Virus record (IMG/VR): IMGVR_UViG_3300021085_000037
Span: 1-57,145 of that record
Reading direction: 5' to 3' (one strand)
Length of the DNA stretch: 57,145 nucleotides
Source: a virus
Taxonomy: Duplodnaviria > Caudoviricetes
The notes under the pieces: generated by a model
Seen by the model: only the letters and a program-made list of their open reading frames with translations
Databases searched by the model: none
What the model was told of the DNA's origin: nothing
Translations under genes and position numbers: made by a program
Part shown: piece by piece, positions 303 through 52,833 of the stretch
Position numbering within the stretch: position 1 is the stretch's first letter
Layout of the letters: every line of letters starts with the position of its first letter

Positions 303-575
303 ATGGGAAAAACAAGAGAAGTAAAAATCAGTAGCAGAACTATATACTCAAAATATTGTGAGATATATATTGAAATACCTAAAGACTTACCTCAAGAAAA
401 AGTAGAGGAATGGTTATTCGAAAACGAAATAAAGTGGACTGATGCTATCGACAATGCAAATGGTCAAGCAACATTAGACTTTGGATTTGGATTAGGAGAT
501 GGTATGGATGAAAAGGATAGTGAACACGAGATGAGATTTGATATAGTAGGGGAACAATATGGTGGACATATATAA
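303..575 (+). CDS. Hypothetical acidic protein (90 aa)
   Basis: ATG with A-rich leader 4 nt after the upstream stop; no recognised motif. Confidence 0.7.
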   Translation: MGKTREVKISSRTIYSKYCEIYIEIPKDLPQEKVEEWLFENEIKWTDAIDNANGQATLDFGFGLGDGMDEKDSEHEMRFDIVGEQYGGHI

Positions 576-699
576 ATACTCTGATGAGCAACACTGAAAG
601 GTGGCGAAACAATGATGGGAGTTGAATGGTGATTAGCTAACATACCAACTTAATGAGAGACAAACAAGATACCAAACTCTCTCCTATCATTGTCAGTAT
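576..699 (+). ncRNA. Hammerhead ribozyme, type I
   Basis: Stem I ATACT 576-580 pairs with AGTAT 695-699. Core CTGATGA is at 581-587. Stem II is GC-AA-CACT-GAAA-GGTG-GC at 588-605, followed by GAA at 606-608. Stem III ACAATGATGGGAG 609-621 pairs with CTCCTATCATTGT 681-693 (13 bp, one G-U). GTC cleavage triplet is at 692-694. Confidence 0.9.
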
Positions 700-719
700 A
701 AATAAAATAAAATAAAACT

Positions 720-1439
720 ATGCCTAATTATGTATATGCTGGGATAACATTAGATGAAGTTTCAGCTGATCAAAAAAAGATTCTCAAAAAAATAGAAGAG
801 AAAGGATCGTTCTGTAATTATTACATAACAATGCCTGAAGAATTAAAAAATATTGTAATTGGTAAAACAATTATAAATGGAAAAGAATATAAACTATATA
901 GACAAGTAGATGGTAAAGATGTAGGAATTTCTGAAAGAGAAAAGAAAATGTTACTTGCAGTCTATGGTGCAACAAACTGGTATGACTTTAGAATGAATGC
1001 CTTTGATACTAAATGGGGAGACTGCGAACTTGAAGTAGATATTGATGGTGGTCAGCTGAATTTTAATACTGCTTGGTCACCAGTTGGTGACAAAATATTA
1101 AATATGTTTGCAGAAGACTTTCCTAATTTTAATTACTGGTACGAAGAAGAAACTGGATGGGGAGGTGAAAGAGATTATGAGAAAGGTAAAGTTGTAAGAG
1201 ATATGTTTTATGAAGAACCTGAATGGGAAGAAACAGAATATGAGATAGGTGATTCAGTATATACTATAACTGAACTTGAAAACGATCATCCAAACTATGA
1301 AGATGGTAAAGGATTCTATGTAGATTATTCTCACGAGTTTGCTGGTAAAACATTAGAAGAAGCAAAGAAGTATATTGATGAGCAACATAAAGAATGGATG
1401 AAGACAAGAGGAAAATCATTTGAAGAACTAATAAAATAG
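720..1439 (+). CDS. Api92/YubB-like ferredoxin-like domain protein (DUF1281-related)
   Basis: MPN start with NWYDFR..FDTKWG and LNFNTAWSP motifs typical of this family. Confidence 0.65.
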   Translation: MPNYVYAGITLDEVSADQKKILKKIEEKGSFCNYYITMPEELKNIVIGKTIINGKEYKLYRQVDGKDVGISEREKKMLLAVYGATNWYDFRMNAFDTKWGDCELEVDIDGGQLNFNTAWSPVGDKILNMFAEDFPNFNYWYEEETGWGGERDYEKGKVVRDMFYEEPEWEETEYEIGDSVYTITELENDHPNYEDGKGFYVDYSHEFAGKTLEEAKKYIDEQHKEWMKTRGKSFEELIK

Positions 1440-3369: not shown

Positions 3370-4106
3370 TGGAAAGTGTACTTGAAAAATTAAAAAGTGA
3401 TGAGCACTACTATGGAGAGTTTGGTAAACAATACTTATCTAACTCTGATATTATAACTCTGCTCAATGATCCTAAAAACTTTCGTAAGGATAAAGAAATA
3501 ACTAAACCAATGCTACTTGGAAGATACTTTCATACTGCAATGTTAGAACCTGAGAAAGTAAATTCAACAGAATTTTTAGAGATAGATGCTTCCAGTAGAA
3601 ACACAAAGAAATATAAAGAAGAAATCCTTACACATAATAAAAGTATTATGATGTTAAGTAAGGAGAAGATAGATATTGATAAAGCTATTTCTACTATGAC
3701 AAATAACTTAGAGTTCTATGAAGCTATCTATGATGAAAGAAACCTTTATGAAATTCCAGCAATAAAAGAAGTTCATGGAATGATGTGGAAAGGTAAGGCA
3801 GATATTGTTGCAGAAGATATGTTAATAGATCTTAAGACAACATCTAACATCAAAGACTTTAAGTATAGTGCAAGAAAATATAATTATGATAGTCAAGCAT
3901 ACCTATATCAAAAATTCTTTGGTAAACCTCTTGTATTCTATGTTGTAGATAAAACAACATATGAGTTAGGAATCTATCATCCATCTCAAACATTCTTGGA
4001 GTATGGTAAAGAGAAAGTAGAGAGAGCAATCGAAGTGTATAACAAATTTTATAGTAAAGATGCTGAAGAAAATATTGAATCGTACATCATTAAAGAAGTA
4101 CTTTAA
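3369..4106 (+). CDS. PD-(D/E)xK exonuclease (RecE/ExoVIII-like, DUF3799)
   Basis: YLSNSDI, LGRYFHTAMLEP, KGKADIV..LIDLKTT and YNYDSQAYLY motifs. Confidence 0.8.
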   Translation: MESVLEKLKSDEHYYGEFGKQYLSNSDIITLLNDPKNFRKDKEITKPMLLGRYFHTAMLEPEKVNSTEFLEIDASSRNTKKYKEEILTHNKSIMMLSKEKIDIDKAISTMTNNLEFYEAIYDERNLYEIPAIKEVHGMMWKGKADIVAEDMLIDLKTTSNIKDFKYSARKYNYDSQAYLYQKFFGKPLVFYVVDKTTYELGIYHPSQTFLEYGKEKVERAIEVYNKFYSKDAEENIESYIIKEVL

Positions 4107-10022: not shown

Positions 10023-10370
10023 ATGGCTTACAAAGACAAGAAAGACCAGGCAGCATGTTCTAAAAAGCACTATGAAGCTAATAAAGAAAACATTAAGCGT
10101 AGGTCTTCTACCCGTAATAAATTACAACGAGATAAAAATATAGCTTATGTTAATGAGATAAAAAGAATAACTCCTTGTGTTGATTGTGGATGTGTTAATC
10201 CAGTACTGTTAGAGTTTGATCATGTTAGGGGAGAAAAAGAGAAGTGCATATCTGATATGGTTAGGGGAGCATATAGTATTGATACCATACAGAAGGAGAT
10301 AGATAAATGTGAAGTAAGATGTGCTAATTGTCATAGACTAATAACACATCAAAGGAGAATAAATAAGTAG
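10023..10370 (+). CDS. HNH endonuclease (zinc-binding)
   Basis: CVDC..LEFDH..CEVRCANCHRLITH. Confidence 0.8.
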   Translation: MAYKDKKDQAACSKKHYEANKENIKRRSSTRNKLQRDKNIAYVNEIKRITPCVDCGCVNPVLLEFDHVRGEKEKCISDMVRGAYSIDTIQKEIDKCEVRCANCHRLITHQRRINK

Positions 10371-10443
10371 GACGAGTAGCTCAACTGGACAGAGCAACAA
10401 CCTTCTAAGTTGTAGGTTGAAGGTTCGAGTCCTTCCTCGTTCA
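10370..10443 (+). tRNA. tRNA-Arg (anticodon UCU)
   Basis: Acceptor GGACGAG/CTCGTTC, D arm GCTC/GAGC, anticodon stem ACAAC/GTTGT with loop CTTCTAA, T arm GAAGG-TTCGAGT-CCTTC; CCA not encoded. Confidence 0.93.
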
Positions 10444-52627: not shown

Positions 52628-52833
52628 TATTTTCTAATTCTTGCAGAGTTCTTTGCCTTTACATTATTGATACACTCATAAGACATATTGTGATCTCCAC
52701 CGTATGCATGACCGTATTCTTTTTTAGACATAGCTTTAGACTCATCTCTTCTGTCTTTCATAGACTGAGACTTCTTTCCGTTCTTAGCTCCTAATGACTC
52801 ATCAAGTCTTGAATTGTAACCTTGCTTTTTCAT
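52627..52833 (-). CDS. Small basic protein
   Basis: KKQGYN.RLDESLG..NGKKSQS.K.RRDESK.M. Confidence 0.65.
   Translation of the reverse strand: MKKQGYNSRLDESLGAKNGKKSQSMKDRRDESKAMSKKEYGHAYGGDHNMSYECINNVKAKNSARIRK

What the first reader, a model, noticed from the sequence alone, without database searches (positions are those of the whole stretch)
576..719. Complete type I hammerhead ribozyme in an early-gene intergenic space
Seen in sequence: all conserved core nucleotides (CUGAUGA, GAAA, GUC) and three pairable stems are present. The ribozyme begins at the first base after the stop of 303-575. Stem III carries an unusually large 59-nt loop (622-680) that could form extra helices, such as TGGT/ACCA. 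Established: hammerheads cleave 3' of the UH and leave a 5'-OH. Inference: cleavage after C694 would release the mRNA of the Api92/YubB-like gene with a 25-nt almost pure A/U leader. This suggests self-processing of the early transcript to control stability or translation, and the loop III insert may be a regulatory module.
Basis: partly seen in the sequence, partly recalled or inferred. Interest (0 to 1): 0.9.

Follow-up and report, generated by a model that had tools for sequence, protein, structure and literature searches.

The report
Hammerhead ribozyme between two phage genes
A genuine self-cutting hammerhead RNA sits between two early genes of a marine phage; this kind of element is already known in phages, but this copy carries an unusually large extra piece on one arm.

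Summary
Window 576-699 (+) has every hammerhead core nucleotide, three helices and type I topology, and it starts at the first base after the stop codon of ORF 303-575. None of 1000 shuffled windows gave an equally strong match.

Relatives settle it. A covariance model built without the window found 34 copies in 22 viral loci. In these, 96.3% of pair cells are paired and 15 of 17 pairs show double compensatory changes. Six syntenic relatives keep the ribozyme, and their only core change is at N7, the one free position.

The "59-nt loop" is a UCU triloop plus a 56-nt indel. One relative has the same 12-bp stem III without the insert, and others have a 6-bp stem III. In silico the insert does not change hammerhead folding (0.018 with it, 0.026 without).

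No Rfam model reaches its threshold. Cleavage in vivo is not shown, and two RNA-library contigs bridge the site.

Hammerheads flanking phage genes were described by Perreault et al. 2011 (PMC3088659). This scan already holds 922 notes with these words. Verdict: a real new member of a known kind, with only modest interest in the insert.

The parts
303..575 (+). Upstream ORF (90 aa, no family match). Its TAA stop at 573-575 abuts the ribozyme.
576..580 (+). Stem I, 5' strand (AUACU).
   Evidence: pairs with 695-699. Helix I covaries in relatives.
581..587 (+). Core strand CUGAUGA (C3-A9). Position 585 is N7.
   Evidence: N7 is U or A in syntenic relatives and all other core positions are invariant.
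588..605 (+). Stem II hairpin with two unpaired A and a GAAA-containing loop.
   Evidence: The 30 bases 581-610 (core, stem II, GAAA and the first stem III base) recur letter for letter in 7 other viral loci. Helix II covaries.
606..609 (+). Core strand GAAA (G12-A15.1). A609 pairs with U693.
610..621 (+). Stem III, 5' strand (12 nt).
622..677 (+). 56-nt insert in loop III, present or absent among close relatives.
   Evidence: Absent in L032, identical in L031, and 1 substitution plus a longer linker in L033. Not found elsewhere.
678..680 (+). UCU, which is the whole loop III in the insert-free allele.
   Evidence: L032
681..692 (+). Stem III, 3' strand.
692..694 (+). GUC triplet. The predicted scissile bond is between C694 and A695.
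   Evidence: hammerhead consensus (recalled numbering). Invariant in 7 syntenic sequences, including the partial L001.
695..699 (+). Stem I, 3' strand (AGUAU). It would be the 5'-OH end of the downstream RNA.
700..719 (+). A/U-rich leader without a Shine-Dalgarno-like run.
   Evidence: The cleavage-to-start distance of 25 nt is typical of the family: 22-41 nt in 26 of 33.
720..1439 (+). Downstream gene, 239 aa, with the Api92-like DUF1281_C domain.

Best explanation
Window 576-699 encodes a functional cis-acting type I hammerhead ribozyme within a + strand early transcript of a marine phage. Once transcribed it folds into three helices around the canonical core and cleaves between C694 and A695. 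The upstream RNA (ORF 303-575) then ends a few bases after its stop codon. It carries the whole folded ribozyme, including the long stem III, and a 2',3'-cyclic phosphate at its 3' end. The downstream RNA (the Api92-like gene) starts with a 5'-OH and a 25-nt unstructured A/U leader once the 5-bp stem I falls apart. The likely consequence is that the two cistrons are uncoupled, giving them different stability or translation. Shown here: the motif, its non-random nature, its conservation, covariation in all three helices, and the indel nature of the loop III insert. Inferred: cleavage itself, its extent in vivo, and any effect on expression. The 56-nt insert is most likely a tolerated peripheral extension of stem III and not a switch.
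For: Anatomy and shuffle test: 0 of 1000 shuffles gave an equally strong match. The 30 nt of core plus stem II recur exactly in 7 other viral loci (9 copies), with unrelated stem I and stem III sequences that still pair. A degenerate pattern gave 22 loci, 21 of which hold a copy with stems I and III. Model R1, built from 6 non-window sequences, scores the window at 35.9 bits, E 8.9e-8. It finds 34 copies in 22 loci, 165,461 bases in all. Covariation over these: 96.3% of 519 cells are paired, against 31-41% for slid partners. 15 of 17 pairs change on both sides, and 0 of 500 shuffles reach the covariation score. Synteny: window, L031, L032, L033, L034 and L025 all have the ribozyme directly after the same upstream gene's stop, and the partial L001 keeps the cleavage site and stem I 3' strand. 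The only core substitution is U/A at N7, with A in 3 of 6. More distant syntenic copies are in L049, L051 and L053. The ribozyme is more conserved than the flanking coding DNA: against L031, 1 difference in 124 nt versus 13 in 171; against L033, 3 substitutions in 124 versus 22 in 171. Placement is typical of the family: the upstream stop lies within -3 to +4 nt of stem I in 21 of 25 cases that could be scored. Published precedent: hammerheads flanking genes in prophages, cleaving in vitro in three tandem arrangements and in vivo in one (PMC3088659, passages read).
Against: No cleavage data exist for this sequence. Two contigs from RNA libraries span 694/695: X15 record 3 (434-861) and X16 record 9 (422-936). 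Uncleaved RNA, or carried-over DNA, therefore exists in those libraries. No Rfam hammerhead model reaches gathering score on the window or on 7 related loci holding 14 copies. R1 aligned only the 5' half of the window copy and skipped stem III through a local end. Stem I is only 5 bp. I could find no Watson-Crick partner of 4 or more bases for loop II in the adjacent tails, which have no UU or C-rich run. The tertiary contact that fast natural hammerheads need is therefore unidentified. The predicted equilibrium fraction of hammerhead-compatible secondary structure is low (0.018), although it lies within the family range of 0.004-0.43 over 19 copies. The window has only this one copy, so it does not show the clustered arrangement.
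Confidence: 0.8

Rival explanations
1. The motif is a genuine hammerhead by descent, but in this lineage it is slow or inactive, either because of the insert or because no tertiary contact exists. It would then persist only as a structured intergenic spacer or 3'-end protective hairpin.
For: RNA-library contigs bridge the site. No tertiary partner for loop II was found. The predicted hammerhead-compatible fraction is low, 0.018.
Against: The core is invariant in three insert-bearing sequences (window, L031, L033) whose flanking genes differ by up to 28% in protein, and the only change is at the free N7 position. The fold fraction equals that of the insert-free allele.
Confidence: 0.1
2. The loop III insert is a regulatory module, such as a ligand- or protein-binding domain, that makes this a natural allosteric hammerhead.
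For: The insert is as conserved as the core: 0 of 56 differences against L031 and 1 of 56 against L033, where flanking coding DNA differs by 7.6% and 12.9%. It contains a repeated AUACCAA(A)C element, and UGGU can pair with either copy.
Against: It sits on a 12-bp helix that forms without it (L032). The predicted hammerhead-competent fraction is unchanged. No Rfam family matches it. It occurs nowhere else in the viral contigs or in the loci held. With only 3 near-identical copies, no covariation test is possible. Its conservation could reflect recent recombination.
Confidence: 0.05
3. The conserved ribozyme sequences mainly act at the DNA level, as short shared linkers where phages recombine and swap neighbouring genes or ribozyme arms. 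RNA cleavage would be secondary.
For: An identical 30-mer occurs in otherwise unrelated contigs. At one syntenic locus, stems II and III occur in mosaic combinations. L033 and L034 share flanks, N7 and stem II but have entirely different stem III. L034 and L025 share stem III but differ in stem II.
Against: Compensatory changes in all three helices show selection on the RNA fold. The two roles are not exclusive.
Confidence: 0.04
4. Chance resemblance to the hammerhead consensus.
For: Loose matches arise in 13 of 1000 shuffled windows. Rfam thresholds are not met.
Against: 0 of 1000 shuffles gave an equally strong match. There is also syntenic conservation and family-wide covariation.
Confidence: 0.01

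Closest known systems
Hammerhead ribozymes flanking genes in phages and prophages (Perreault et al. 2011, PMC3088659; passages read)
   Same: Canonical core, intergenic position between co-oriented phage genes, and variable neighbouring genes. The proposed role is the same: cutting long phage transcripts into gene-length mRNAs. Relatives of the window copy are clustered in the same way, for example 5 copies in L020 and 4 in L004.
   Different: The window has a single copy. Stem III is 12 bp with a 59-nt loop. The copies here abut the preceding stop codon. Whether this stem II subtype is already in that paper's Dataset S1 could not be checked, because supplements are closed.
Rfam hammerhead models (Hammerhead_3 RF00008, RAGATH-1-hammerhead RF03152, and the rest of the hammerhead clan)
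   Same: The core and the stem II consensus align. RAGATH-1-hammerhead has the same type I order of elements.
   Different: All scores are far below gathering: 14.4 bits on the window, and 24.5 and 23.4 bits on short relatives, against cut-offs of 48.5 and 56.3. The upstream hairpin of RAGATH-1 is not evident.
Split or one-to-many hammerhead arrangements noted earlier in this scan (e1-3293241, e1-6200246)
   Same: Phage early operon; hammerhead core.
   Different: There are no remote substrate sites here. The 13-nt substrate-like motif has 2 matches, one of which is the ribozyme itself, against 3.3 expected by chance. This is a plain cis ribozyme.
Engineered aptazymes with an aptamer grafted on a hammerhead stem (recalled; PMC10400872 seen only in the search listing)
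   Same: An extra domain sits on a peripheral stem.
   Different: In aptazymes a short communication helix links the aptamer to the core. Here a stable 12-bp helix insulates the core from the insert.

Membership tests
Hammerhead ribozyme | Core nucleotides C3 U4 G5 A6 N7 G8 A9 and G12 A13 A14 (numbering recalled) | tested here: met
   581-587 is CUGAUGA and 606-609 is GAAA. These are invariant in 6 syntenic sequences except N7.
Hammerhead ribozyme | A15.1-U16.1 pair followed by H17 (not G) at the cleavage site | tested here: met
   A609 pairs with U693 and C694 is H17; the triplet is GUC.
Hammerhead ribozyme | G10.1-C11.1 pair closing stem II | tested here: met
   G588-C605. This pair is G-C in 32 of 32 scored relatives.
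Hammerhead ribozyme | Three helices around the core, supported by covariation | tested here: met
   In 34 relatives, 96.3% of cells are paired and 15 of 17 pairs have double changes; slid controls give 31-41%. The window's own stems were read directly.
Hammerhead ribozyme | Tertiary contact between stem I and loop II (or a pseudoknot) that gives fast cleavage at low Mg2+ | tested here: inconclusive
   No complement of 4 nt or more to loop II is in the 12-nt tails beside stem I. Loop II is strongly conserved in the family, which hints at an unidentified contact.
Hammerhead ribozyme | Site-specific self-cleavage giving a 2',3'-cyclic phosphate and a 5'-OH | not testable with these tools
   Only assembled contigs of RNA libraries were available.
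Type I topology | Stem I open; stems II and III closed by loops | tested here: met
   The order is stem I 5' strand, core, hairpin II, GAAA, hairpin III, UC, stem I 3' strand.
Rfam hammerhead families (clan CL00010, RF03152) | Score at or above the curated gathering threshold | tested here: not met
   No hit at gathering. The best is 14.4 bits against 48.5. The short relatives also fail: 0 matches in 7 loci holding 14 copies.
Clustered phage/prophage hammerheads (Perreault 2011) | Several ribozymes close together, flanking single genes or short gene blocks | tested here: not met
   The window has one copy. The next best R1 hit is 15.2 bits with a broken core. Related contigs do show clusters.
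Allosteric (switch-controlled) self-cleaving ribozyme | The accessory domain changes whether the catalytic fold forms | tested here: not met
   In silico only: the hammerhead-compatible fraction is 0.018 with the insert and 0.026 without it. Ligand or protein binding was not testable.

The most novel reading that the evidence does not exclude
The 56-nt insert in stem III may be a selected functional RNA module and not junk. It could be a protein-binding or 3'-end-protecting domain that stays attached to the upstream mRNA after cleavage. Stem III at this one locus would then be a hypervariable cassette, with three alleles among close relatives, exchanged between phages while the catalytic core is held constant. 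That would make this a natural example of a hammerhead used as a scaffold for swappable accessory domains.
Probability: 0.12. Interest if true: 0.6.

Novelty: new member of a known kind. Interest (0 to 1): 0.35.

Why it matters
The biological role of bacterial and phage hammerheads is still described as largely unresolved (review PMC6765202, passages read). This locus offers a clean natural experiment. The same gene junction exists with a short stem III, with a 12-bp stem III, and with a 12-bp stem III plus a 56- or 64-nt insert, and it exists with two stem II types. It also shows that a common marine-phage hammerhead subtype, placed directly after stop codons, is invisible to Rfam at curated thresholds, so annotation pipelines will miss it. 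Beyond that, the element is an ordinary example of a kind described in 2011 and met many times in this scan.

Tried and rejected
Rfam at gathering and E-value thresholds gave no usable hammerhead hit on the window or the relatives.

blastn of 300-1450 against the annotated phage collection gave no match.

The first MAFFT alignment of 33 copies (A1) misaligned the 3' halves and was not used. I built R1 from 6 equal-length copies instead.

R1 could not span the window's stem III and used a local end. Its score therefore speaks only for the 5' half.

The pattern from the stem III 5' strand hit 3 viral loci. All lie inside coding-like sequence without a hammerhead core, so they are chance matches.

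A 20-mer of the insert had 0 matches in viral contigs. blastn-short of stem III against the window and all held loci found only L031, L033 and the stem halves of L032.

The core plus stem II pattern had 0 matches in genome contigs, so no prophage or host was found.

The promoter/terminator scan of 1-2500 gave 11 promoter-like sites against 13.4 expected, none within 576-719, and 0 terminators. The insert is therefore not an evident sigma-70 promoter.

The remote substrate site search was at chance level.

RNA evidence: only Logan contigs were available, and these cannot show RNA ends. One contig of run X18 lies on 493-693 and stops within a few bases of the predicted site. That is a single contig from a single study, so I do not count it. 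X16 record 10 matches only 689-722 and diverges upstream, probably a relative with another stem III allele.

Association with the downstream gene family: R1 found a hammerhead upstream in only 3 of 79 loci encoding more distant Api92-like homologues, and my + strand descriptor found 2 of 79. The ribozyme is therefore not a fixed leader of this gene family.

Pfam on 10 of 29 ORFs downstream of family members gave no common function.

Literature searches turned up no description of a large natural loop III insert in a bacterial or phage type I hammerhead. This covers only the open-access library, and supplements, including the alignments of PMC3088659, were closed.

Full report
WHAT IS THERE. 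The stretch 576-699 on the + strand reads as follows:
- Stem I, 5' strand: 576-580.
- Core CUGAUGA: 581-587.
- Stem II: an 18-nt hairpin at 588-605. It is closed by G588-C605, has two unpaired A residues and a GAAA-containing loop.
- Core GAAA: 606-609.
- Stem III: 12 bp, 610-621 with 681-692, including one G-U pair, capped by 59 nt (622-680).
- Cleavage triplet GUC: 692-694.
- Stem I, 3' strand: 695-699.

ORF 303-575 ends with TAA at 573-575, and the next ORF starts at 720. The order of elements is that of a type I hammerhead.

IS IT MORE THAN CHANCE. A simple descriptor (core, GAAA, U-H, three stems) finds one hit in the 57,145-base window on both strands. Among 1000 dinucleotide-preserving shuffles, 13 gave a loose hit and none gave one with stem I >=5 and stem III >=8. 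The region folds somewhat better than shuffles: z = -2.26 for 570-710 and -3.05 for stem III alone.

The proposed Rfam test is negative. Only a tRNA passes gathering score in the window. In E-value mode the best hammerhead hit is Hammerhead_3 at 14.4 bits against a cut-off of 48.5, covering only the core and stem II. This is a limit of the models and not of the element. Seven related loci that hold 14 compact copies also give no Rfam hit at gathering. In E-value mode they reach only 24.5 bits (Hammerhead_3) and 23.4 bits (RAGATH-1-hammerhead).

RELATIVES. The 30 nt of core plus stem II occur letter for letter in 7 other viral contigs, 9 copies in all. In each, stems I and III have different sequences that still pair. 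Allowing the inner stem II to vary gave 22 loci. Of these, 21 hold a copy with stems I and III, and stem II itself covaries; L017 is a chance match inside a gene. Many contigs hold several copies: 5 in L020, 4 in L004, and 2 each in L003, L006, L008, L012, L014, L019 and L025.

I built covariance model R1 from six equal-length copies, none from the window. It scores the window at 35.9 bits, E 8.9e-8, although it skips the oversized stem III. It finds no second copy in the window: the next hit is 15.2 bits with a deleted C3 and GGAA in place of GAAA. Over 22 loci (165,461 bases) it finds 34 copies. On that alignment:
- 96.3% of 519 pair cells are standard pairs, against 31-41% when partners are slid by 1-3 columns.
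- 15 of 17 pairs change on both sides.
- 0 of 500 shuffles reach the observed covariation score.

The alignment was fitted to the model's structure, which favours pairing. The sequence diversity of stems I and III is, however, visible without any model.

THE SAME LOCUS IN RELATED PHAGES. The downstream protein retrieved L031 (96% identity), L032 (87%), L034 (78%) and L033 (72%) from metagenome contigs. The upstream protein retrieved L025 (86% to the upstream protein). All five have a hammerhead that starts directly after the same stop codon. The truncated L001 keeps the cleavage site and the stem I 3' strand.

The only core difference is U or A at N7, with A in 3 of the 6 full sequences. From established hammerhead biochemistry (recalled), N7 is the one core position free to vary.

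Stem II comes in two types. Stem III comes in three alleles:
- 6 bp with a GCAA loop (L034, L025, L001).
- The window's 12-bp helix with a UCU triloop (L032).
- The same helix with a 56-nt insert (window, L031), or a 64-nt version (L033).

So the "59-nt loop" is UCU plus a 56-nt indel at 622-677.

Two loci with 80% and 54% relatives of the upstream gene but a different downstream gene (L026, L027) have no hammerhead. Among 79 loci with more distant Api92-like homologues (27-50% identity), only 3 have one upstream. At least L049 and L051 follow a similar upstream gene end and have the same stem I.

The ribozyme, insert included, is more conserved than the flanking coding DNA. Against L031 there is 1 difference in 124 nt versus 13 in 171. 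Against L033 there are 3 substitutions in 124 versus 22 in 171.

THE INSERT. It matches no Rfam family. It has no other copy in the window, in the loci held, or in the viral contig collection. It holds no sigma-70-like promoter by the simple scan.

Predicted folds place a UGGU(G)/(U)ACCA hairpin and a GAGAG/CUCUC hairpin on top of stem III. The latter borrows at most the top two pairs of stem III.

Under the nearest-neighbour model, the fraction of the ensemble compatible with the hammerhead secondary structure is:
- 0.018 for the window.
- 0.054 and 0.072 for the other insert-bearing alleles.
- 0.026 for the insert-free L032.
- 0.004-0.43 over the 19 copies computed.

The insert is therefore neutral for folding in silico, and a 12-bp helix separates it from the core. 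Its high conservation is the one point in favour of a function. With three nearly identical copies, that could equally be recent exchange.

HOW IT MOST LIKELY WORKS. Shown: a conserved, covarying hammerhead placed 0 nt after a stop codon and 25 nt before the next start. This matches the family pattern. The upstream stop lies within -3 to +4 nt of stem I in 21 of the 25 copies where an upstream ORF of 40 or more codons could be scored out of 34. The cleavage-to-start distance is 22-41 nt in 26 of 33.

Inferred from established hammerhead chemistry: cleavage after C694. This leaves the upstream message with the whole ribozyme and a cyclic phosphate at its 3' end. The Api92-like message gets a 5'-OH and an A/U leader, which becomes single-stranded when the 5-bp stem I dissociates.

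Further inference (recalled knowledge, not tested): such ends alter decay by 5'-end-dependent RNases and 3' exonucleases. A ribosome terminating at 573-575 would cover stem I and the core, so folding and termination compete.

The published view is the same. [quoted passage not shown] A 2019 review still calls the roles of bacterial ribozymes largely elusive (PMC6765202, passages).

EVIDENCE ON EXPRESSION. Near-identical DNA is held by marine and viral metagenome runs. Leaving out the possible sources, rows X9-X14 from studies P8-P12 hold 0.97 of the sampled words. Four RNA-library runs were laid, all as assembled contigs. Two contigs, in X15 and X16, span 694/695 with more than 200 nt on each side. 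Uncut RNA or contaminating DNA is therefore present. Contigs cannot show RNA ends, so cleavage in vivo remains open.

CONTEXT. The record is a linear viral contig estimated to be 94% complete. Neighbouring + strand genes include a DnaA-type HTH protein and a Sak single-strand annealing protein, which fits an early or replication module. The downstream gene has the Api92-like DUF1281_C domain and 26 database relatives. A first-reader note on this genome proposes Bacteroidota-type promoters (e1-6275548). I did not test that, but the leader's lack of a Shine-Dalgarno run is compatible with it.

COMPARISON AND VERDICT. The element meets every sequence-level defining feature of a type I hammerhead. 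It fails only the Rfam score thresholds. Its tertiary contact and its catalysis are untested.

It works like the phage and prophage hammerheads of Perreault et al. 2011. It differs in being single in its genome and in carrying the largest stem III seen among the copies collected here. It is not a split or one-to-many arrangement of the kind noted elsewhere in this scan. The scan already holds 922 notes containing these words, in at least 813 genomes.

I rate it a new member of a known kind. Interest is modest and rests on the natural allelic series of stem III and on the blind spot in Rfam.

Noticed in passing
L004:8535-11428 (-): There are four type I hammerheads within about 3 kb, each just after a stop codon. 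The gene after the first one encodes an ArdC-like anti-restriction protein (ArdcN 59.4 bits plus a zincin peptidase domain at 100.4 bits). This recalls the ardA gene flanked by hammerheads in Perreault 2011.
   Followed up: partly
L020:567-11389 (-): There are five hammerheads by descriptor, plus a sixth R1 hit at 3692-3753, in 14 kb of one viral contig. Their stem I sequences are nearly the same, and three stem II types are used.
   Followed up: partly
L006:2177-2663 (+) and the identical L009: Two hammerheads 420 nt apart flank a 107-codon ORF. Both have mismatches in stem III next to the core and use GUU or UUC in place of GUC. They may be weaker or decaying copies.
   Followed up: no
L003-L009 (7 loci): Rfam 15 at gathering score reports none of the 14 compact hammerheads in these loci. 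This marine-phage subtype is a blind spot of the curated models.
   Followed up: yes
window 641-649 and 669-677: The insert contains two copies of an AUACCAA(A)C element, and UGGU at 627-630 can pair with either. L033 keeps both copies but has a longer linker before the second.
   Followed up: partly
window 52761-52810 (-): This is a weak hammerhead-like match (15.2 bits, E 0.085) with C3 missing and GGAA in place of GAAA. It is probably chance or a dead relic.
   Followed up: no
window 10370-10443 (+): A tRNA gene (69.6 bits), the only Rfam hit at gathering score in the window.
   Followed up: no
window 689-722: One contig of RNA-library run X16 matches only 689-722 and is unrelated upstream of 689. 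It is probably a co-occurring relative with a different stem III allele or upstream gene.
   Followed up: no
L028:2127, L029:5871, L030:1402: The window's 19-nt junction of stem II and stem III recurs by chance inside a conserved coding region of three unrelated viral contigs. This is a reminder that short ribozyme-arm patterns give false hits.
   Followed up: yes
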